Virus record (IMG/VR): IMGVR_UViG_3300013114_000098
Direction: 5' to 3' (one strand)
Source: a virus
DNA: 64,000 bases
Shown here: piece by piece, positions 6,062 through 21,826 of the stretch
How positions within the stretch are numbered: position 1 is the stretch's first letter
How the letters are laid out: every line of letters begins with the position of its first letter
Program-made: the position numbers and the translations under genes
The notes under the pieces: model-generated
What the model saw: only the letters and a program-made list of their open reading frames with translations
Database searches by the model: none
What the model was told of the DNA's origin: nothing

Positions 6062-6071
6062 CCGTTAATAA

Positions 6072-6257
6072 GTTAAATAGGTAGGACTTGGTTACACCTA
6101 CAAGCCGGAAACACAGATACCATTCTATAATTCCAGCAACCTAACCCCGCCAGTGACTGCGATGTGACTCCCTCTGTTTTCCAGATAAAGCCTGGGTACC
6201 ACCCCTGGTTAGTCAAGTTAGAGCCTCTGGTAAGACCCTCTTCCTTGCACTATTAAC
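6072..6257 (-). ncRNA. ~186-nt structured non-coding RNA (family unassigned)
   Basis: GC-richer island; ends pair (GUUAAUAG/CUAUUUAAC); helices AACUUGAC/GUUAGGUU, CCAG/CUGG, GGGU/ACCC, GCUGGAA/UUCCGGC, GUAGG/CCUAC; G-U pairs only on minus strand; own promoter and terminator. Confidence 0.8.
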
Positions 6258-6291
6258 AAAAAGTAATTAGTTTTTTGTTACTTATGTGTTT

Positions 6292-14264: not shown

Positions 14265-16219
14265 TATTCAACTGTTGCCTCCTCTTTTCCTAATAATTCA
14301 ACTTTCTTTGCTTGTAACTTTTCTTGGTATGATAATAATTCATTTAATTCATCTTGTTGATCCATTAATAAGTTCTCTAAGTTTTGTCTTTGTTCATCTG
14401 TAATTTTTTCTCCCTCAATAACTTCACCAGTTTCAGGATCTGTCCAATCAGGTGCCATTCCATCTTTAGCATCTAATATTGCTTGTAACTCATCTGTAGA
14501 TTCTCTCATTTGTTTAATTTGCATCTCAACTATTTGGACATTAGATACAACATTACCTTCATTTATTTGTGATAACCTTTTGTCATGTATTGAAGCTCTG
14601 TGTTCTTCCCAAAAAGTTTCAAATCTATTATCACCTTGTTCGTCACCATGAAAAAGTTTGCTTACGCCTCTACCAAATCTCATCAAACTTCCAGATAACG
14701 TTCTAAATCCAGTTGCCATGCTACCAAATCCAGGTGTTAATAGCTCTTGCATTTCTTGGAATGCAATTGCCATATTATTCATTACTTCTATACTAGTATC
14801 TGCATTATCAGCAAGATTTGCATAATAACCTGATGTTAATGTATCTGTGTCTGACATTAAAAACTCTTCAGCACCTGCCGCTGTTTTAGCTGATGCAAGT
14901 AATGCGTTAAGTGCTTCAAGGTTAGGATCACCTGCTGTTACTTTAAATGGTACATCTCTTATTAATTTAAAAAACTTCTTATAAGCATCTACTGTTTCTG
15001 CTTCAGTTTTAAATTGCCCTGTACCTATTTTTTCAACAAGATCAATAAGTGCTTCTGACGCACCTGGAGCACCTTGTAAAGTTTCTATCATTGTTTTGCT
15101 TATATTATTTGCCGCTGTCTGATCAAAACTAATATCACCCACGAATCCTGTTATGACACTTTCCATGGCTCCAGCAAAATCTGCACCAAATAATTGTTCA
15201 TTTAATACTCTAACAAGACCGGTTGCGTCTGAAATGTTTTTACTAGCTTGTTCGCCATATGTTTTTTCAATAAATGCTTTATTTTGCAACAACCCAACCC
15301 TTAAATCAACATTATTCCTTGCCTCATCTCTTAATCTTAATGCTTCTTCTCTTTGCATTCCAAAAACATCACCAGTAAATAATGCAAGGTTATTTGCTGA
15401 TCTATATGAATCGATTACTCTTTTTCTACCAACTTCATTCATGGAAGTTAATTCTCCTAGCTGATATAATGTTTGTATTTCTTGAGCAATGAATCTAGTT
15501 TGGTCTTGTATTCCCATTCCAAAGTCTCTAAATGTTTTGTCTTGATCAATTTCTTTTGCAAACTCTGCTAATCTTAAAGCACCTTCGAATAAATTTTCTT
15601 CTGCTTGAACAAGAAACGGTTTAGACTCTGCCATTAAATCAGTAAAGTCTTTTAGTCCCATTCCTAAATCTCTAGTTGCAAATCTTAAGTTAGTCCAATG
15701 ATCTACATCACTTACTACTGCACCAAAGTCTATTAACTGTCTAGCTTGTTTTTCTTGCTCGGTTAATAACTTTGCAAAAATTATACCCATACCTGTTGCT
15801 ACTACAAGTGGAGTACCTGCATGTCTTGCCACCATTTTAAGACCCGAAGCCCATTTTCCCATTCCTGCTCCCATGTTTGACACACCTATACCAGCATTTG
15901 CCATAATCTTTGCTGCCTCGTGTGCTAATTCAGCGGTAGCATTAACAGGATCACTGCTTTTCATTATTACATTCATTGCACCGCCTGCTACTTTTGTGGC
16001 TTTTACAGTAGCTTCACCGGATGCTGTAACTAGATCTTCTGCTTCTTCTGCGTCAGCACTTAATGCTCTTATAGACGCCGCATCTTTTTTACCTAGCACA
16101 GCCGCAATCATGGCCATAGTAGAATTGTTTATGGTCATGCTAGAGCTTACTTTTTCTAATGTAATCTCAGTTGCCCAAGGATACTGTTGATAAATTAGGT
16201 CTATTTGTTGTTGGTCCAT
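14264..16219 (-). CDS. Tape-measure-like helical tail protein (paralogue 1)
   Basis: 651 aa, N-terminal PWATEITL motif, hydrophobic G/A segment, helical. Confidence 0.55.
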   Translation of the reverse strand: MDQQQIDLIYQQYPWATEITLEKVSSSMTINNSTMAMIAAVLGKKDAASIRALSADAEEAEDLVTASGEATVKATKVAGGAMNVIMKSSDPVNATAELAHEAAKIMANAGIGVSNMGAGMGKWASGLKMVARHAGTPLVVATGMGIIFAKLLTEQEKQARQLIDFGAVVSDVDHWTNLRFATRDLGMGLKDFTDLMAESKPFLVQAEENLFEGALRLAEFAKEIDQDKTFRDFGMGIQDQTRFIAQEIQTLYQLGELTSMNEVGRKRVIDSYRSANNLALFTGDVFGMQREEALRLRDEARNNVDLRVGLLQNKAFIEKTYGEQASKNISDATGLVRVLNEQLFGADFAGAMESVITGFVGDISFDQTAANNISKTMIETLQGAPGASEALIDLVEKIGTGQFKTEAETVDAYKKFFKLIRDVPFKVTAGDPNLEALNALLASAKTAAGAEEFLMSDTDTLTSGYYANLADNADTSIEVMNNMAIAFQEMQELLTPGFGSMATGFRTLSGSLMRFGRGVSKLFHGDEQGDNRFETFWEEHRASIHDKRLSQINEGNVVSNVQIVEMQIKQMRESTDELQAILDAKDGMAPDWTDPETGEVIEGEKITDEQRQNLENLLMDQQDELNELLSYQEKLQAKKVELLGKEEATVE

Positions 16220-16248
16220 AATGCTTTATTAAGTGGTATTTTAATTCA

Positions 16249-16285
16249 GATAAATACTATTGTATATACGTTACTACTATTTATG
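16249..16285. promoter_or_regulatory. Face-to-face late promoters: GATAAATA (+, 16249-16256) and CATAAATA (-, 16278-16285)
   Basis: Two late-consensus octamers in the 106-bp gap between divergent genes. Confidence 0.7.
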
Positions 16286-16325
16286 GAAATCATAATATAC
16301 GTATATAATTGGAGAAATACAAAAC

Positions 16326-17156
16326 ATGACAAACCCATTAATTCAAGCATATAGAAAGCCTGCTTTATACATTCCATTACCAAGTGGCGGTAAATTCTAC
16401 AAAAAGAAGCCGAAACTTAGCATAGATAATGAACTGGCAGTATATGCTATGACAGCAAGGGATGAACTTATTACTAAAACCCCAGATGCTTTGTTTAACG
16501 GAGAAGCCACAATTAGTTTGATTAAAAGTTGTTGCCCTGATATTGTTGAACCAGAAACAATGCCAGTAAGCGACTTACTTGTAATCTTAGTAGGTATTAG
16601 ACAAGCAAGTTATGGAAAAAATATAGACATCGATGTTAAATGTCCTAAGTGTGAGTTTGATAATCAATTGCAATTAGATGCAAATATAATGTTATCAAAC
16701 GCAAAAACTGGCACAATTGAGCAAAGTGTAACATTACCAAGTGATTTTAAAATTATTTGTAATCCATACACATTAAACGATAGAACTATGTTACAAGTTC
16801 AACAAATTAAACAAAACAAAATGATACAAGGATTGGCTAGTGAGAAACTAGAAGATGCTGAAAGACAAGATCTTTTTGGAAAAACATTTGTTGAAATTGC
16901 AGAACTTACTGTTAGTTTAATTACTAATAGTATTGTAAGTGTACAAGGTAAAGACACTGATGTTATCACAGATAAAGATACTATTAAAGAATGGCTACAA
17001 AATATTACTAAAAATGATTACGAAGTAATCAGAACTAAAATAGAGGAACTAAGCGAAAGTGGCTTAGAAACTAAATTTGCTGCCAATTGTCAAGACTGTG
17101 GACATAGTTGGAAGACTGGTGTGGACTTAGACGTCGCAAATTTTTTCGGGGGTTGA
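16326..17156 (+). CDS. gp26: Baseplate hub assembly protein (T4 gp26-like)
   Basis: YIPLPSGGKFY, MTARDEL, IRQASYG, two CxxC pairs, C-terminal NFFG. Confidence 0.8.
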   Translation: MTNPLIQAYRKPALYIPLPSGGKFYKKKPKLSIDNELAVYAMTARDELITKTPDALFNGEATISLIKSCCPDIVEPETMPVSDLLVILVGIRQASYGKNIDIDVKCPKCEFDNQLQLDANIMLSNAKTGTIEQSVTLPSDFKIICNPYTLNDRTMLQVQQIKQNKMIQGLASEKLEDAERQDLFGKTFVEIAELTVSLITNSIVSVQGKDTDVITDKDTIKEWLQNITKNDYEVIRTKIEELSESGLETKFAANCQDCGHSWKTGVDLDVANFFGG

Positions 17157-17380
17157 TAGCTTCTCGTCAACCCGAAGACATTGTAAAATTAGTTGAACAG
17201 TATAATAAGGATTTAGAAACTACAGAAGGTAGCTACTTAGATGTAGTTATTCGTAGTGAAGGTGCGGTTAGTTATAAAGACATTCTGCAAATGCCTGTGA
17301 GCAGTATTAAACTCTTAATAGAACGTATGAATAGTCGTGTTGAGGAAATTAATAAAGCAAGAAAAGGTAATAGACGTTAG
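17153..17380 (+). CDS. Small ORF in -1 frame (gp51-like position); probably a frameshift extension of the gp26-like gene
   Basis: No well-placed ATG/RBS; overlaps gp26 end at slippery AAATTTTTTC. Confidence 0.6.
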   Translation: MIASRQPEDIVKLVEQYNKDLETTEGSYLDVVIRSEGAVSYKDILQMPVSSIKLLIERMNSRVEEINKARKGNRR

Positions 17381-17820
17381 TGGCCTGTTATTAAATTATA
17401 ATAATCTTCTGGCCAACTGTCATAATATGTGGTGTTTTTGTGTAAATGTTTACGTTTTTCATGTAAATCGCTTTTTCTTTGAACAAACACACAGTCAGTA
17501 AAGTTCTTTACAAAATGTCCACTTGTTCTTGTACTAGTAAAATATAATAAGTGAGGATGTTTTTCTCTAAGCTCTGCACAAGTCTTTTCTATAAAAGACA
17601 TATCATCTACATCACCCAACCAACAAATAGCCATTTGGTACTTAACATGGTCAAATGATTCTAAAGCCAGAACATTGTCACGTGCATCAACAAACTGTAA
17701 TGCATTTTTAATTCTTGCACTTTTTGCATACGGACATATAGGATATCCATCATCCTTTAAAGGCTCAACTGATTCTTCTGCAAACTTTAAAAATTTAATC
17801 CGAAATTCGTCCAACGTCAT
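17377..17820 (-). CDS. Hypothetical protein (CPYA motif, DUF1415-like)
   Basis: 147 aa, AGGA RBS, upstream late promoter CATAAATA at 17916-17923. Confidence 0.6.
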   Translation of the reverse strand: MTLDEFRIKFLKFAEESVEPLKDDGYPICPYAKSARIKNALQFVDARDNVLALESFDHVKYQMAICWLGDVDDMSFIEKTCAELREKHPHLLYFTSTRTSGHFVKNFTDCVFVQRKSDLHEKRKHLHKNTTYYDSWPEDYYNLITGH

Positions 17821-17942
17821 GTATATGTTTTCCTGATATAATTGATGTCTTCGACATCATCAACTTCGCAAAGCTAATCGCTTTGCTCGTTGTTGTTGCT
17901 TACGCTTTATACACTTATTTATGTTAATTTATATTGAATTTA

Positions 17943-18418
17943 AATGACTACTTGACAAGATGCTTTATTCACACTTAGCCTTATACAGGCCAAGTGTAAA
18001 TTGTTCTTGACATAGAACTCTACCCACAGATACTATAGTAAACCTAGTTTAGCACCTAGGAAGGGCGGTTACGCGGTACCCTTATTACATACTGCTTTAT
18101 AACGCAGAAACACCCATTGCCATAGTATCAACTTTGGGTTGTCCTCAAGTTCCAAATTGTCAGGAGAGCTTGATCATTTTGATTTGTCAAATCAGTGCAT
18201 TGACTTATAGGCACACCAGTTCTGGTCACAATGAAGTAACCTCAAGGTGAGTCGAGCGAATCTCGACCAATCAGGGCCTTGTAGCCTATGTTAGTTTTTA
18301 TTAGCCTAAAATTGTATTTGAGTTGGAGCCGGACTTTAAGTCTGTATGAGTTTTGGTTTTACACTATTAGTTATCTTATGCTTTAATTATTAGCTGATAA
18401 TAAAGTTAAAACGCTACT
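17943..18418 (-). ncRNA. Long structured non-coding RNA (~480 nt) or RNA-primed origin region
   Basis: 630-bp ORF-free gap with about ten hairpins and long-range helices; G-U pairs favour minus strand; sigma70 promoter directly upstream. Confidence 0.7.
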
Positions 18419-18424
18419 TTTGTT

Positions 18425-18453
18425 ATAATAACAAAAATTTAATACGTTGTCAA
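18425..18453 (-). promoter_or_regulatory. Host sigma70 promoter overlapping GIY-YIG stop codon
   Basis: TTGACA-17 bp-TATTAT with extended TGn; -10 lies within a 9-1-9 palindrome. Confidence 0.75.
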
Positions 18454-18896
18454 CCTTTCTTTAAGTGTTCCGTAAGAATTTTTGAACTACCCACCCTTAC
18501 GTTAATAATGCCGTTATAGTATTCATCGGTTTCTAATACTCTACGGTCAAATTGTTCTTTTGCTTCCATGTAACTTAATACACCTTTACTAGGACAATAA
18601 TGTAAAATTTCTCTAGTAAATTTATTTGAACCAAGTGTTAGGACATCTGCGTTTAAATGATCTGATGACCCCCAATAGTCTTGCCAATCACTTTCTTTAT
18701 ATCCACGTCTTTTATTCTTTTTACCTTTAAGTGGTGGCTTAGTTGTTTTAAATCTTGCTAGTTTTTTACCTATGTATTTTTTATTGTTAGTAAGATTTGT
18801 AATTACATATACAAATCCTTCGCAATCATTAGGTAATTCATTGACTATTTTATTTTTATATGTCCATGGACAATTATTCTTCTTTGACCCATTCAT
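18450..18896 (-). CDS. Stand-alone GIY-YIG endonuclease-like protein (Seg-like)
   Basis: GFVYVITN...KKYIG, YWGSS, FTREIL, E...YYN motifs; catalytic domain only, basic insertion. Confidence 0.85.
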   Translation of the reverse strand: MNGSKKNNCPWTYKNKIVNELPNDCEGFVYVITNLTNNKKYIGKKLARFKTTKPPLKGKKNKRRGYKESDWQDYWGSSDHLNADVLTLGSNKFTREILHYCPSKGVLSYMEAKEQFDRRVLETDEYYNGIINVRVGSSKILTEHLKKG

Positions 18897-19032
18897 TTAT
18901 TGTTTTCCTAATCAAGTCTAAAGTATCTATACCTAGTTCGTCCTTTTTTATTGTTTCCGGTGCATGTAATAATACATAAGTCCATTTTTCGTGTAATTCT
19001 AATTCTTCTTGTTTGTTATATGTATTACGCAT
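18874..19032 (-). CDS. Small hypothetical protein (52 aa, MRNTYNKQEELELHEKW...)
   Basis: Not in ORF track; fills gap, overlapping gp46 stop and GIY-YIG start. Confidence 0.55.
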   Translation of the reverse strand: MRNTYNKQEELELHEKWTYVLLHAPETIKKDELGIDTLDLIRKTINEWVKEE

Positions 19033-20803
19033 CAATTACTTCTACTTCAGTGTCAAATGTAGTGAAGCCATTTTCTTTAGTAACTTGTAGCACTCTGCTA
19101 ACTCTACCTACTAATTCATCTCTGTGTGAAATAAGTAAAATATTCTTATTTCTATCACGTTCAAATTTCTTTAACACACCTAATGCACTATCAACACCAA
19201 CTGTGTCCATACCACTATCAACAAGTTCGTCTATACAAACAAAGTTAATAGGATGATTCATACTTTCAAATACATCACGGAATGCCCAACTAAGTCCAAG
19301 TATAAGTCTATTACGTTCTCCCCTTGATAAATTATCAAAATCTAAATCTTGACCAAGTTGTGTAATAGTTACAGTTAAGTCACTTTGAAATTCTACTTCA
19401 TGCGGTAAACCTAGTCGTGTAATATAATATTCTAAACGTGTGTTTAAAAATTGTAAGTTTTGTTCAATAATCTTTTTACGAATAAAACTATCTTTGTTAG
19501 TTAATAGTTTTAATAAAAAGTCTTGATGTTCTCTTAATTCTTCAAGTGTATTTACTTCTTCCCAATCTACATCTTGTAATCCTGTATTTTTTAAAACATC
19601 AATTTGTTCTATATACGGATTAGTTTCGTTTGCGGCATTAGTCATTGATGATTGTAACTTATCTATTTTACTTTGATGCTTATATGCTTCTTGTAAGGTA
19701 TTATATTCAATTGTGGGAGCATTTCCAATTTCACCAATGGCAGTAATTGCATTTGTGTACGATTCAATTAATTCGTTCTCTTCAGTAATTTGAGTTTGAC
19801 TTTCATTTACAAGTTCTGTTTTTTGAGAAACTATTTTATCATGTTGTTCATCATGAATATCTTGTCCACATGCATAACATTTATGTTCTAATGTAGCAGT
19901 TAAATCTTCTTGTGCCTTATCTAAACGTTTCTGTTCACGTTCAGAACTACTTGTAAGTCTAGCTATTTCAGCATTTAAAGTATCTATTTGGCCTTTCTTT
20001 TCATTAAATTCAGCAAACTCTTCGTGTGCTTTTATTTCTTTATCAATGTCAATATGTTCTAATGCTTGTATCTCACTAGTATATTCTTGAATACGTCCTT
20101 CTAGTTGTGAAGCCCATGTCTTTTCTCTACGTTCAAGATCTTTAATACTATTATTAATACGTTCGTTTGCATCTTCTACTCCTTTAAGTCTATATGTTTC
20201 TTCAGTTATTCTGTCTTTAGTATTTTTTAATAGTTCTTTAAGTATATCAGCCTTCTCACTAAGTTTAGTAATTCCTAACAATTGCTCAATCATGTCACGT
20301 TGATCATTTGCTCTCATACTTAAAAATGGTTCAGTGTATGTATTCAGTGCAATAATATGCTTAAACATATTATGAGTCATACCAAGTGTTTGTTCAATTA
20401 CGTGTTGGCTTTCTCTGCCTTGCCCTTGCATTTCATCTGTAATGTCGTCGTCATTGCTATCTACGTCATTGACTAGATATTTAAATACATTGGGTTTGCG
20501 TCCACGCTCAATACGATAATTTACACTGTCTATTTCAAAATCAACAGTGACCATCATATTTTTATTATTAGTTTTATTAACTAAGTTATCTTTTTTAATA
20601 CTGTATAACGCACTACCAAATAATGCATAACTTAATGCATTAATAATTGTTGTCTTACCTGTACCATTACGTGATCCATCACCACCTAAATCTAAATTAT
20701 TACCTAATACAAGTGTTAGCCCTGCATCATCAAAGTGAACAGCCTGTGTGACATTGCCCACACTCATAAAGTTCTTTACGGTGATATTTTTAATTATTAG
20801 CAT
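19025..20803 (-). CDS. gp46: Recombination endonuclease ATPase subunit (gp46/SbcC/Rad50-like)
   Basis: NGTGKTT Walker A, CYAC zinc hook, LSRGE signature, IDE Walker B, ISH. Confidence 0.95.
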   Translation of the reverse strand: MLIIKNITVKNFMSVGNVTQAVHFDDAGLTLVLGNNLDLGGDGSRNGTGKTTIINALSYALFGSALYSIKKDNLVNKTNNKNMMVTVDFEIDSVNYRIERGRKPNVFKYLVNDVDSNDDDITDEMQGQGRESQHVIEQTLGMTHNMFKHIIALNTYTEPFLSMRANDQRDMIEQLLGITKLSEKADILKELLKNTKDRITEETYRLKGVEDANERINNSIKDLERREKTWASQLEGRIQEYTSEIQALEHIDIDKEIKAHEEFAEFNEKKGQIDTLNAEIARLTSSSEREQKRLDKAQEDLTATLEHKCYACGQDIHDEQHDKIVSQKTELVNESQTQITEENELIESYTNAITAIGEIGNAPTIEYNTLQEAYKHQSKIDKLQSSMTNAANETNPYIEQIDVLKNTGLQDVDWEEVNTLEELREHQDFLLKLLTNKDSFIRKKIIEQNLQFLNTRLEYYITRLGLPHEVEFQSDLTVTITQLGQDLDFDNLSRGERNRLILGLSWAFRDVFESMNHPINFVCIDELVDSGMDTVGVDSALGVLKKFERDRNKNILLISHRDELVGRVSRVLQVTKENGFTTFDTEVEVIDA

Positions 20804-21826
20804 TTATGTTGTTAGTCCTCTGTAAATATCTACTAGTAGTTGCTTTTTAATAGTATCACTTTGTACTGAGTTAAGTTGCGACAGTACAATGCTATCTACG
20901 TTTTCTACTTGGATATCAACTCCTTTATTCCAGTCTTGTGTATGTTCTTCTTTTTTGCTAGGCATAAGAGCAATCTCACGTAAGTTGTATTGTTTAATAA
21001 ATGTTTCTTTAATAAAGTTTGCTTCTTCGTATGTAATACCAACATCTAATGTAACACGGCAATGTGTTTTATCAGATAAGTATTTGTCTGGGTTATCTAT
21101 TAATTTACTTAATGTTAAAGTTCTATACTTAGGAGCATCTGGCCATGCTAGATATTCTATATTGCCATCCCAATCTAAAAACATGCATCCTCTGTCGTCG
21201 TCCCATGTATCAGCATAGTTATGTGGGAAACAATTGCCTGGGTAAATTACATTGCCACGTTTTTGTCTTTTATGAAAGTGTCCACTAAAAACCATCTCAG
21301 GTTTTGATAAGTCTTCTGCTTTAAGACCTCCTGTGTCTGGCATTTGTACAAGGGCATTCATATAAAAGTCTGGCAATTCAAAATGACCAAACATAAATTT
21401 ACATTCAATTTGTTTTAACTTTTTCCATTCGTCATCACATAGCCAAGGAATAAATGCTACGCCATCTTCAATAAGCATTTCCTTGTTTACCATTCTAATT
21501 TTTTTGAAGTCCTCAATCATTGATAAACTATGAATCTCACGCTTTTCACGATAATATAAATCATGATTACCAGTGATCATTATAATCTCATCAAAGTTCT
21601 CATTAAGTCTTCGTAAGTTACTAGTGGTATAATTTAGTGTGCTAACATTGATACTAGCACGATTGTGATGCCAATCTCCTAAGAAGAAACATTTTTTAAT
21701 GCCTCTTTTATGAGCTTCAGCAATCATCCATATGATAAAATCTTCACAATCCTGGTTATGATATCTACTGTTATTCTTCATGCCAAAGTGAATATCAGTA
21801 AAGATCACTGCTTTGTCAAAAAACAT
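20804..21826 (-). CDS. gp47: Recombination endonuclease nuclease subunit (gp47/SbcD/Mre11-like)
   Basis: DIHFG, GDWHH, GNHD, GHFH metallophosphoesterase motifs. Confidence 0.95.
   Translation of the reverse strand: MFFDKAVIFTDIHFGMKNNSRYHNQDCEDFIIWMIAEAHKRGIKKCFFLGDWHHNRASINVSTLNYTTSNLRRLNENFDEIIMITGNHDLYYREKREIHSLSMIEDFKKIRMVNKEMLIEDGVAFIPWLCDDEWKKLKQIECKFMFGHFELPDFYMNALVQMPDTGGLKAEDLSKPEMVFSGHFHKRQKRGNVIYPGNCFPHNYADTWDDDRGCMFLDWDGNIEYLAWPDAPKYRTLTLSKLIDNPDKYLSDKTHCRVTLDVGITYEEANFIKETFIKQYNLREIALMPSKKEEHTQDWNKGVDIQVENVDSIVLSQLNSVQSDTIKKQLLVDIYRGLTT

What the first reader, a model, noticed from the sequence alone, without database searches (positions are those of the whole stretch)
17943..18896. 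Stand-alone GIY-YIG gene followed by a promoter-driven ~480-nt structured RNA: candidate nuclease-RNA system or RNA-primed origin
Seen: the gp55-gp47-gp46 operon ends with a 148-aa GIY-YIG protein with only the catalytic domain plus a basic insertion (KPPLKGKKNKRRG) and no evident C-terminal DNA-binding domain. Its stop codon overlaps TTGACA-17-TATTAT, which fires into a 630-bp ORF-free gap, unusually large for this dense genome. The minus strand has an A/C-rich 5' part with repeated AGGCT/AGGC, then hairpins GUCGAG/CUCGAC (18251-18267), ACCU/AGGU, ACCAG/CUGGU, CUGC/GCAG, AAGGGU/GCCCUU, CCUAG/CUAGG and a 14-bp UUUACACUUGGCCU/AGGCUAAGUGUGAA. A 10-bp long-range or pseudoknot pairing GAUACUAUGG/CUAUAGUAUC and a closing helix (~18185-18201 with 17943-17958) enclose a ~260-nt domain. 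G-U pairs are on the minus strand, indicating RNA-level structure. Known: IscB/omegaRNA and HEARO couple compact nucleases with large RNAs; ColE1 RNA II and T4 oriF/oriG use promoter-made RNA primers. Inference: either an undescribed GIY-YIG ribonucleoprotein in which RNA supplies specificity, or a structured pre-primer RNA origin next to recombination genes.
Basis: partly seen in the sequence, partly recalled or inferred. Interest (0 to 1): 0.85.

Follow-up and report, generated by a model that had tools for sequence, protein, structure and literature searches.

The report
Twin-box structured RNA behind phage nuclease
The gene-free gap behind a small nuclease gene of this uncultured marine giant phage encodes a real, knotted non-coding RNA of about 470 bases. 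It is a divergent member of a widespread mobile-element RNA family of which only one part is catalogued, the nuclease is a swappable neighbour and not a shown partner, and the RNA's job is unknown.

Summary
A conserved sigma-70-type promoter overlaps the stop codon of the GIY-YIG gene and points into a 629-nt ORF-free gap. The minus strand of that gap carries a structured RNA: 15 helices, two pseudoknots, 96.6% of cells paired, and 34 of 79 pairs with compensatory changes against 12 in shuffles.

The RNA matches nothing in Rfam. Its core is nevertheless homologous (E = 4.9e-13) to the uncatalogued 3' extension of RNAs whose 5' third is the Rfam motif Polynucleobacter-1. Weinberg et al. noted in 2010 that this motif lies downstream of PSSM2_218-like genes, which is this GIY-YIG family.

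All subclasses carry two identical 7-10-nt "twin boxes" about 55-65 nt apart around a hairpin. The two boxes change together between lineages, and what reads them is unknown.

The nuclease is not an obligate partner:
- It occurs without the RNA in complete phage Melnitz, in two cyanophages and in about 28 of 80 close loci.
- It has been exchanged horizontally, while the RNA follows the phage backbone.
- In two loci a PD-(D/E)xK nuclease replaces it.
- A Limnohabitans genomic island has the RNA with integrases and no GIY-YIG.

There is no expression data. This scan had already reached the same reading of this family on other genomes.

The parts
18450..18896 (-). Compact GIY-YIG nuclease gene (148 aa; PSSM2_218 / phrog_447 family, often misannotated as 'NAD synthetase')
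   Evidence: Pfam PF19835 2.6e-34; phrog_447 2.6e-36. GFVY, YIG, R63/R64, E111 and N128 are invariant in 12 homologues. dN/dS is 0.06-0.13.
18425..18453 (-). Sigma-70-type (early-type) promoter TTGACA-17-TATTAT; its -35 box overlaps the GIY-YIG stop codon
   Evidence: 11 of 12 positions, TG extension. The boxes and spacing are conserved across the clade while the spacer sequence varies.
18290..18418 (-). Clade-specific A/C-rich 5' leader with a conserved start (AGCUAAUAAUUAAAGCAU), a small covarying hairpin GACUUAAAGUC (18332-18342) and a hypervariable middle with indels
   Evidence: Alignment A1 columns 45-215 and pair 140/146 CG to UA. This leader is absent from the other subclasses, where the RNA starts right after the stop codon. 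The transcription start (~18418) is inferred from the promoter.
18140..18289 (-). RNA 5' domain: UAGGC start, hairpin GUCGAG/CUCGAC (18251-18267), CACC/GGUG enclosing GGUUAC/GUGACC (18214-18249), hairpin GAUUU-GAC-AAAUC (18181-18193), and UCAAG/CUUGA with inner UCC/GGA (18145-18173)
   Evidence: Helices 1-3 and 5-7 (95-100% paired, 1-3 compensatory pairs each). This domain is shared with the Ib/Ic subclasses (nhmmer E about 1e-7).
18029..18139 (-). RNA central domain. Pseudoknot stem ACCC/GGGU (18136-18139 with 18112-18115) is interleaved with the long-range helix GAUACUAUGG/CUAUAGUAUC (18120-18129 with 18029-18038). That helix encloses CUGC/GCAG (18092-18107), AAGGGU/GCCCUU (18061-18083) and CCUAG/CUAGG (18043-18060).
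   Evidence: Helices 8-12; the long-range helix is 100% paired with 5 compensatory pairs. The tertiary pairing GCAC (18195-18198) with the loop GUGC (18052-18055) is 100% paired and switches between A-U (14), G-C (6) and G-U (2).
18003..18018 (-). Hairpin GUUCU/AGAAC presenting twin box 1 (AUGUCAAGA, 18006-18014)
   Evidence: helices 13-14.
17968..18000 (-). 13-bp hairpin UUUACACUUGGCC/GGCUAAGUGUGAA between the twin boxes
   Evidence: Helix 15 (97.2% paired, 3 compensatory pairs and 5 wobble-only pairs).
17950..17958 (-). Twin box 2 (UUGUCAAGU), identical in its core to box 1 and 55 nt downstream of it
   Evidence: At least 9 box variants occur among 25 clade sequences, and the two boxes are always the same within one RNA. 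The same module, with other box sequences, is found in all subclasses. In the Limnohabitans RNA my 7-mer scan found no box pair; I read a 6-nt pair (AUCGAA) off the printed sequence by eye.
17842..17949 (-). A+T-rich variable linker with a late-promoter-like UAUAAAU box (17928-17934), followed by two conserved covarying hairpins (17868-17886 and 17842-17863) just upstream of orf147. These are a possible 3' end of the RNA or a leader of orf147.
   Evidence: A1 columns 590-745; pairs 692-742 carry many compensatory changes. No U-tract terminator on the RNA strand follows either hairpin (the plus-strand site at 17868-17886 is on the opposite strand). The assignment is inferred.
17377..17820 (-). 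orf147, the downstream gene of unknown function; in the 22 aligned loci, all collected through this gene, it follows the gap
   Evidence: It is less conserved (46-99% aa) than the RNA core DNA.

Best explanation
The gap is a gene for a stand-alone, early-transcribed structured RNA. It is at least about 470 nt long, with a core of about 340 nt, 15 helices and two pseudoknots. It is a divergent member of a modular RNA family carried by mobile DNA: uncultured T4-like, mostly giant, phages and at least one bacterial integrative island. One 5'-domain variant of this family is catalogued as Polynucleobacter-1 (RF01718).

Shown here: the RNA fold, its strand, its promoter, its family links and its separability from the nuclease.

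Inferred: the RNA works on its own in trans. Its two identical, fast-changing but always matching boxes, each exposed beside a hairpin, most likely base-pair with two copies of one short complementary sequence. That partner has not been found.

The upstream GIY-YIG gene is a catalytically intact, selected and horizontally exchanged small nuclease. It occupies a nuclease slot between gp46 and the RNA gene. It behaves like a seg-type free-standing endonuclease parked beside a conserved RNA gene, as SegB is in the T4 tRNA region, and not like the RNA's dedicated protein partner.
For: The RNA is real:
- RNAalifold finds 92 pairs, 40 of them with compensatory changes.
- On 25 distinct sequences, 96.6% of cells are paired. 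34 pairs change on both sides, against 12.4 +/- 2.0 in shuffles and 4-8 in slid controls.
- Gap DNA is 72-96% identical even where orf147 protein is about 50% identical. Synonymous sites differ by 0.43-0.72 in the five more distant loci (0.21-0.34 in the closest, L001).

Family links:
- The clade profile hits the 3' extension of a Polynucleobacter-1 RNA in Limnohabitans at E = 4.9e-13, with compensatory changes in the long-range helix.
- The 5' domain matches subclasses Ib/Ic at E about 1e-7.
- The subclasses link to one another at 1e-13 to 1e-22.
- The twin-box module is present in every subclass.

Separability from the nuclease:
- Complete phage Melnitz has the GIY-YIG protein at 80% identity but no RNA.
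- P-SSM2 and S-SRM01 homologues have no gap downstream.
- About 28 of 80 close GIY-YIG loci have no gap downstream.
- GIY-YIG identity disagrees with gp46 identity: L150 86% against 52%, L023 67% against 74%. The RNA tracks gp46.
- A PDDEXK_15 nuclease replaces GIY-YIG in L242 and L246; in L242 the RNA is intact (E = 1.8e-42), and L246 keeps an RNA match by blastn.
- The Limnohabitans island has the RNA with two integrases and toxin-antitoxin pairs, and no GIY-YIG.

Own promoter.
Against: - In phages the RNA was never found without a nuclease gene directly upstream. This held in 55 of 57 gp46-anchored loci (the other 2 have the PD-(D/E)xK nuclease), in 100 of 100 loci found through an RNA motif, and in all 21 newly found clade loci that hold sequence upstream of the RNA. 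A purely selfish, patchy homing gene would not predict this. The result is confounded by shared synteny.
- In most subclasses the RNA has no promoter of its own and starts right after the nuclease stop codon. It could therefore act in cis on that mRNA.
- The nuclease has no DNA-binding domain, unlike characterised Seg proteins.
- No target for the twin boxes was found.
- Only one bacterial instance was examined.
Confidence: 0.6

Rival explanations
1. The RNA acts in cis as a long structured 3' UTR of the nuclease mRNA. It would control the stability, processing or translation of a potentially toxic nuclease, whichever nuclease fold occupies the slot.
For: - In subclasses Ib, Ic and Pn the RNA begins within about 20-30 nt of the stop codon. 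No strong promoter lies in between, and a terminator-like hairpin follows box 2.
- The RNA is always preceded by a nuclease gene in phages.
- It persists when the nuclease fold is swapped.
Against: - This clade has its own conserved strong promoter after the ORF.
- The Limnohabitans copy has no nuclease gene upstream.
- A core of about 340 nt with two pseudoknots and co-varying twin boxes is far more than known bacterial 3' UTR elements need (general knowledge).
- GIY-YIG homologues elsewhere do without it.
Confidence: 0.13
2. The RNA is the specificity or scaffold subunit of a nuclease ribonucleoprotein. The domain-poor GIY-YIG enzyme, or its PD-(D/E)xK replacement, would be aimed at DNA by the RNA, with the twin boxes as short paired guides.
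For: - The nuclease is a catalytic domain only.
- The RNA-next-to-nuclease linkage is 100% in about 200 phage loci.
- The twin boxes are variable between lineages but identical within an RNA, as a programmable element would be.
- There is a hypervariable 5' leader.
Against: - The same protein family at 80-87% identity works without the RNA (Melnitz and the no-gap loci).
- That protein sits beside RNAs with quite different 5' domains and boxes.
- The protein and the RNA have different evolutionary histories.
- An unrelated nuclease fold can take its place.
- The RNA exists with no nuclease in a bacterium.
- The box word is not avoided in the loci of its own genomes, where it recurs outside the two boxes.
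- 7-10 nt is short for a guide.
Confidence: 0.1
3. The RNA is a pre-primer for an RNA-primed replication origin, like ColE1 RNA II or T4 oriF/oriG, placed beside the recombination genes gp46/gp47.
For: - There is an early-type promoter and a long RNA with no U-tract terminator.
- An A+T-rich tract and DNA hairpins follow (17842-17949).
- The element sits next to gp46/gp47.
- The RNA also occurs on a mobile island.
- Earlier notes of this scan proposed the same reading; this is a lead only.
Against:
- T4 origins are not known to need a conserved tertiary RNA fold (general knowledge).
- In other subclasses a terminator-like hairpin directly follows box 2 and a convergent gene follows.
- The GC-skew turn at about 17400 coincides with the change in gene direction, so it is uninformative.
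Confidence: 0.07
4. The RNA is a member of a known catalytic or housekeeping class that the models missed: a group I intron carrying a homing-endonuclease ORF, tmRNA, or RNase P RNA.
For: - GIY-YIG genes often lie in phage group I introns, and relatives such as Melnitz encode a two-piece tmRNA (PMC9004378).
- The interleaved-stem topology loosely recalls P3/P7 of group I introns (recalled resemblance only).
Against: - Rfam finds nothing at E <= 1 in 16000-21000 and only manA in the whole window.
- ARAGORN finds no tRNA or tmRNA.
- gp46 is full length, there is no room for a 5' intron half, and no split host gene is present.
Confidence: 0.03

Closest known systems
Polynucleobacter-1 RNA motif (Rfam RF01718; Weinberg et al. 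2010, Genome Biol 11:R31, PMC2864571)
   Same: - The genomic setting is the same. The 2010 supplement says most examples lie downstream of genes resembling PSSM2_218, which is this GIY-YIG family.
- RNAs that start with this motif (L152, and Limnohabitans L528) continue into a 3' region homologous to the core of the window's RNA, including the AAGGG...AACCGCCC hairpin and, in L152, the twin-box module (in L528 read by eye only).
- The function is unknown in both cases, and neither has been seen in an isolated phage.
   Different: - The Rfam model (141 positions) does not match the window at E <= 1.
- The window's 5' domain has a different architecture.
- The shared 3' part is not in the Rfam model.
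- This clade adds its own promoter and a leader of about 130 nt.
T4 SegB, a free-standing GIY-YIG endonuclease in the tRNA gene cluster (recalled from the literature; not read here)
   Same: A free-standing GIY-YIG gene sits beside conserved structured-RNA genes in a T4-like phage. The nuclease moves horizontally and would favour inheritance of its neighbours.
   Different: - Seg proteins carry a C-terminal DNA-binding region, and this 148-aa protein does not.
- The gene here is fixed and under purifying selection, not patchy.
- No cleavage site is known.
Large 'ornate' RNAs of unknown function linked to phages (GOLLD, ROOL; Rfam)
   Same: A large multi-helix, pseudoknotted non-coding RNA carried by phages and mobile DNA, with no known function.
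   Different: There is no sequence or model match. The RNA is smaller. The twin-box module and the fixed position behind a nuclease gene are specific to this family.
IscB/HEARO omega-RNA and TnpB omega-RNA systems (OMEGA)
   Same: A compact nuclease gene lies next to a large structured RNA on mobile DNA.
   Different: In OMEGA systems the RNA and the nuclease are obligately linked and co-evolve, and a guide longer than 15 nt adjoins the scaffold (recalled, not checked here). Here the nuclease occurs without the RNA, the RNA occurs without the nuclease, the nuclease fold can be swapped, and the only candidate guides are two identical 7-10-mers.

Membership tests
Polynucleobacter-1 RNA (RF01718) | Scores at or above the Rfam gathering threshold (37 bits) | tested here: not met
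   No Rfam match at E <= 1 in window 16000-21000 or at the gathering threshold in the whole window. Positive controls: L152 107.8 bits and Limnohabitans 53 bits.
Polynucleobacter-1 RNA (RF01718) | Lies downstream of a PSSM2_218-like gene | tested here: met
   The upstream GIY-YIG protein is homologous to P-SSM2 PSSM2_218 (39-40% identity). The statement is in the PMC2864571 supplement.
Extended Polynucleobacter-1 / twin-box RNA family (uncatalogued) | Homologous central and 3' domain (long-range helix, AAGGG...AACCGCCC hairpin, terminal long hairpin) | tested here: met
   Clade profile against Limnohabitans L528: E = 4.9e-13, profile positions 127-346. CM R1 against L177: E = 0.011 at the expected place. 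Subclass links at 1e-13 to 1e-22.
Extended Polynucleobacter-1 / twin-box RNA family (uncatalogued) | Two identical short boxes about 54-67 nt apart flanking a hairpin, co-varying between lineages | tested here: met
   Window boxes UGUCAAG at 18006-18014 and 17950-17958. At least 9 variants among 25 clade RNAs, always matched within an RNA. Present in all other subclasses.
GIY-YIG nuclease superfamily | GIY and YIG motifs plus catalytic Arg, Glu and Asn | tested here: met
   PF19835 2.6e-34. G27-F-V-Y30, Y41-x-G43, R63/R64, E111 and N128 are invariant. No match to a solved structure by sequence.
Free-standing homing endonuclease (Seg-like) | Patchy presence among close relatives | tested here: not met
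   Present in all 27 clade loci that reach the site and in 55 of 57 gp46-anchored loci. dN/dS is 0.06-0.13.
Free-standing homing endonuclease (Seg-like) | Horizontal mobility between genomes and between contexts | tested here: met
   Identity disagrees with gp46. The gene sits next to nrdB in Melnitz and in other contexts in the no-gap loci. The slot is taken by a PD-(D/E)xK nuclease in L242/L246.
Free-standing homing endonuclease (Seg-like) | Separate DNA-binding domain and site-specific cleavage near its insertion site | tested here: not met
   The protein is 148 aa and the domain covers residues 11-131. Cleavage is not testable with these tools.
RNA-guided nuclease system (OMEGA/IscB-HEARO type) | Obligate co-occurrence of nuclease and RNA | tested here: not met
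   Nuclease without RNA. RNA without this nuclease.
RNA-guided nuclease system (OMEGA/IscB-HEARO type) | Variable guide segment complementary to a target | tested here: inconclusive
   The twin boxes and the 5' leader are variable. No complementary site was found locally or at a co-varying homologous site in 41 kb aligned between two genomes.
RNA-primed origin (ColE1 RNA II, T4 oriF/oriG) | Promoter-made RNA that forms a persistent hybrid at an unwinding element and primes DNA synthesis | not testable with these tools
   The promoter and a downstream A+T-rich tract exist. Hybrid formation and priming need experiments.
Group I intron with homing-endonuclease ORF | Match to the intron core, and a split host gene on both sides | tested here: not met
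   No Rfam match. gp46 is complete and orf53 overlaps both of its neighbours.
tmRNA / tRNA | tRNA-like domain | tested here: not met
   ARAGORN finds none in the window. No Rfam tmRNA match.

The most novel reading that the evidence does not exclude
The twin boxes are functional pairing elements. The RNA would use two identical short sequences to hold two DNA (or RNA) molecules, or two sites, that share one short sequence. Candidates are donor and recipient copies during homing or recombination, or the identical cores of recombination sites. It would then act as a programmable bridge or guide for whichever nuclease or recombinase the mobile element carries (GIY-YIG, PD-(D/E)xK, tyrosine integrase). 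That would be a new kind of RNA-assisted DNA transaction, distinct from CRISPR, OMEGA and IS110 bridge RNAs.
Probability: 0.07. Interest if true: 0.92.

Novelty: new variant of a known kind. Interest (0 to 1): 0.6.

Why it matters
Large non-coding RNAs with intricate, pseudoknotted folds are rare, and those understood so far are ribozymes or cores of ribonucleoproteins (general knowledge).

This family is abundant: hundreds of uncultured phage contigs from only 5 capped scans. It is confined to mobile DNA and is absent from the 50,697 deposited phage genomes searched by BLAST. It is only fragmentarily catalogued, as a 141-nt motif of unknown function.

Its two always-identical but fast-changing boxes call for a reader that nobody has identified. 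The window's clade has its own strong promoter, which makes it the best-defined transcription unit of the family for cloning and structure work.

If the boxes turn out to pair with DNA, this would add a new RNA-directed mechanism to phage recombination or replication. If not, it is still a well-supported new large RNA class for structural study.

Tried and rejected
Identity of the RNA:
- Rfam at E <= 1 on the locus found nothing. At the gathering threshold on the whole window it found only manA.
- tRNA/tmRNA: none found. I checked this because related phages carry a two-piece tmRNA.
- Coding potential: no ORF longer than 38 aa in the gap. Short ORFs that start in the boxes are not conserved; some boxes read start-stop.
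- BLAST of three RNA subclasses against 50,697 phage records gave no match.
- PA5oct and Atu_ph07, the closest isolates by gp46 at 50% and 45%, have no convincing homologue. The best CM hit is 17.7 bits over a partial span.

- The closing helix was rejected by counts.

Partner for the twin boxes:
- No exact reverse complement at any consistent place in the loci.
- By eye on the alignment (no count), the H5 loop UGACA and the invariant GAUUUGACAAAUC do not co-vary with the boxes.
- No co-varying complementary site in 41 kb aligned between G000 and G001.
- Several other copies of the box word in G000 look, by eye, like -35 boxes of promoters on the other strand.

Other searches:
- A 17-mer pattern scan of bacterial genomes returned 120 hits, all chance by profile screening.
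- RF01718 occurred in 1 of 151 genomes of the Limnohabitans family.
- The GIY-YIG protein against PDB sequences gave no hit at E <= 1.
- orf147 against PA5oct gp337 shows no similarity.

Not attempted: structure prediction of the nuclease and complex prediction. Pfam plus the invariant catalytic residues settle the fold, and the tools cannot model the RNA.
Full report
**What is at the locus.** On the minus strand the order is gp46 (19025-20803), a 53-aa ORF, a 148-aa GIY-YIG gene (18450-18896), a 629-nt gap (17821-18449) and orf147 (17377-17820). The gap has no ORF above 38 aa. Between about 18000 and 18350 its G+C rises to 0.40-0.46, in a genome of about 0.30. TTGACA-17-TATTAT matches 11 of 12 consensus positions, has a TG extension, and overlaps the GIY-YIG stop codon. 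The host record is a fragment of an uncultured virus, estimated at 23% complete at 83 kb, which implies a genome of roughly 360 kb. Its gp46 is closest, at 45-50%, to the giant phages PA5oct and Atu_ph07.

**The RNA is real.** orf147 relatives in the viral contig collection gave 29 loci. In them the gap DNA is 72-96% identical even where orf147 protein is only about 50% identical. Synonymous sites in the flanking genes differ by 0.43-0.72 in the five more distant loci and by 0.21-0.34 in the closest one. RNAalifold on 22 sequences gave 92 pairs, 40 of them with compensatory changes.

I added hits from a pattern scan to get 25 distinct core sequences (A2). I then wrote out a structure of 15 helices with two pseudoknots and counted it:
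- 96.6% of cells are paired.
- 34 of 79 pairs change on both sides, against 12.4 +/- 2.0 in shuffles (0 of 500 shuffles reach this) and 4-8 when partners are slid by 1-3 columns.
- The long-range helix GAUACUAUGG/CUAUAGUAUC is 100% paired with five compensatory pairs.
- The stem ACCC/GGGU encloses the 5' strand of that helix, which makes a pseudoknot, and has two compensatory pairs.
- A four-base pairing between GCAC and the loop GUGC switches between A-U (14), G-C (6) and G-U (2).
- Many G-U pairs exist only on the minus strand. The single-sequence fold z-score is -4.0 on the minus strand and -2.9 on the plus strand.

The promoter boxes and their 17-nt spacing are conserved while the spacer varies.

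It is 81% paired, and its central pair is broken in 10 of 24 sequences, because one arm is an invariant hairpin and the other arm is a variable box.

**The twin boxes.** The 13-bp hairpin (17968-18000) is flanked by AUGUCAAGA (18006-18014, in the loop and 3' arm of a small hairpin) and UUGUCAAGU (17950-17958). Among the 25 clade RNAs the box takes at least nine forms: UGUCAAG, UGCCAAG, UGUGAAG, GGUGAAG, GGUUAAAG, GGGAAAAG, UGUAAA and others. The two copies in one RNA are always the same and lie 55-65 nt apart. They are not complementary to each other. I found no complementary partner:
- none in the loci;
- none in other parts of the RNA;
- none at any co-varying homologous site in 41 kb aligned between this genome and a 222-kb relative with a different box.

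This feature remains unexplained.

**Relation to known RNAs.** Rfam 15 finds nothing at E <= 1 and ARAGORN finds nothing. Close GIY-YIG relatives, at least 570 in viral contigs with the best 80 fetched, fall into two kinds. About 28 have no gap downstream. About 40 lie behind a gp46 of only about 52% identity and are followed by a G+C-rich gap of 350-740 nt.

Those gaps hold related RNAs in several subclasses:
- Some share the window's 5' domain (nhmmer E about 1e-7).
- One subclass (L152) begins with Rfam Polynucleobacter-1 (107.8 bits).
- All subclasses share a 3' module with twin boxes.

The supplement of Weinberg et al. 2010 states that most Polynucleobacter-1 RNAs lie downstream of genes resembling PSSM2_218 of cyanophage P-SSM2. 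PSSM2_218 is a homologue of this GIY-YIG protein.

The direct link to the window comes from Limnohabitans sp. Rim28. It has a Polynucleobacter-1 match of 53 bits. The sequence that follows matches the window-clade profile at E = 4.9e-13 over profile positions 127-346, with compensatory changes in the long-range helix.

The window's RNA is therefore a divergent member of an extended family of which Rfam holds one 5' variant. None of the three subclasses searched by BLAST, the window's own clade included, matched the 50,697 deposited phage genomes.

**Is the nuclease its partner?** Points in favour of a link:
- In phages the RNA always follows a nuclease gene. This held in 55 of 57 gp46-anchored loci, in 100 of 100 loci found through an RNA motif and in every clade locus.
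- In most subclasses the RNA starts right after the stop codon with no strong promoter.
- The protein is a bare catalytic domain with all catalytic residues invariant, and it is under purifying selection as strong as on gp46 (dN/dS 0.06-0.13).

Points against a dedicated partnership:
- Complete phage Melnitz has the protein at 80% identity beside nrdB, and no RNA by BLAST or by a covariance model of the 3' domain.
- The two cyanophage homologues examined (P-SSM2, S-SRM01) have no gap downstream.
- The protein's relationships disagree with the backbone: L150 is 86% identical in GIY-YIG but 52% in gp46, while L023 is 67% against 74%. The RNA follows the backbone: L023 aligns full length at 217 bits, while L150 aligns partially at 22 bits.
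- In L242 and L246 a PD-(D/E)xK endonuclease (PF24608, 1.7e-27 in L242) takes the place of the GIY-YIG gene. In L242 a complete subclass Ib RNA with twin boxes follows (E = 1.8e-42); L246 keeps an RNA match by blastn.
- The Limnohabitans copy lies between RelE/HTH and ParDE toxin-antitoxin pairs and two tyrosine integrases, with no GIY-YIG. The only ORF upstream looks spurious.

**Best reading.** This is an autonomous structured RNA of mobile elements. The nuclease gene beside it is an exchangeable occupant of a slot, comparable to SegB in the T4 tRNA cluster (a recalled comparison), or else a conserved phage nuclease that happens to be transcribed with it. I put this at 0.6.

A cis-acting 3' UTR role (0.13), a nuclease ribonucleoprotein (0.10) and an RNA-primed origin (0.07) are not excluded. 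The origin idea could not be tested here.

**Relation to earlier notes of this scan.** After reaching these conclusions I looked up earlier notes. Follow-ups on other genomes had already described the same family as a twin-box RNA or extended Polynucleobacter-1 RNA, with a replaceable nuclease and copies in bacterial islands. I had arrived at the Polynucleobacter-1 link, the twin boxes and the nuclease swap independently. Their lead on bacterial islands prompted the Limnohabitans test, which held up.

**Verdict.** Both functional interpretations remain unsupported, and the nuclease-partner reading is weakened. I classify the RNA as a new variant of a known but poorly catalogued kind. Interest is moderate to high because of the size and complexity of the fold and the unexplained twin boxes.

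Noticed in passing
window 6071-6277 (-): Rfam manA RNA (RF01745, 57.8 bits, above the gathering score). This explains the first-stage note about a stand-alone ~200-nt structured RNA behind the major capsid gene (e1-5902685).
   Followed up: partly
window 17842-17886 (-): Two conserved hairpins with many compensatory changes lie just upstream of the orf147 start, preceded by a late-promoter-like UAUAAAU box at 17928-17934. By eye, similar paired hairpins (GAGCG..AGCGA and a second stem) follow the RNA in other subclasses. They could be terminators or a leader.
   Followed up: partly
L242:4036-4551 (+) and L246: A PD-(D/E)xK endonuclease (PF24608 PDDEXK_15, shown for L242; phrog_244 'RusA-like resolvase') occupies the slot between gp46 and the RNA in place of the GIY-YIG gene.
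   Followed up: yes
L529 (Limnohabitans sp. Rim28, G004:C21:8000-20000): A bacterial island with two tyrosine integrases, ParDE and RelE/HTH toxin-antitoxin pairs and an AAA ATPase carries an extended Polynucleobacter-1 RNA with no GIY-YIG gene.
   Followed up: partly
GenBank phage records (for example P-SSM2 PSSM2_218, S-RIM14, phiM7): Members of this GIY-YIG family are widely annotated as 'NAD synthetase' (also the label of phrog_447). This looks like a propagated misannotation. In the cyanophage records listed the gene lies at broadly similar coordinates.
   Followed up: partly
window 18874-19035 (-) and homologues (L150:2258-2476, L242:3864-4100): A small basic ORF (53-78 aa) lies between gp46 and the nuclease gene in most loci checked (tblastn missed it in six clade loci) and in the L150 and L242 lineages, and overlaps both neighbours here. 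It has no family match.
   Followed up: no
G000 (whole record): window-frame coordinates 41057, 42358, 63111 (inside the window) and 64667, 64922 (just past the window's end, in G000): Other copies of the box word UGUCAAG read, on the opposite strand, as ACTTGACA. This is probably the -35 region of this phage's early promoters. The antisense of both twin boxes has the same look in this clade only.
   Followed up: partly
L126:6900-8030 (Pseudomonas phage PA5oct): A stretch of about 1.1 kb that is largely non-coding, with hairpins, lies between gp46 and the baseplate hub genes at the syntenic place in PA5oct. It is not detectably related to this RNA.
   Followed up: no
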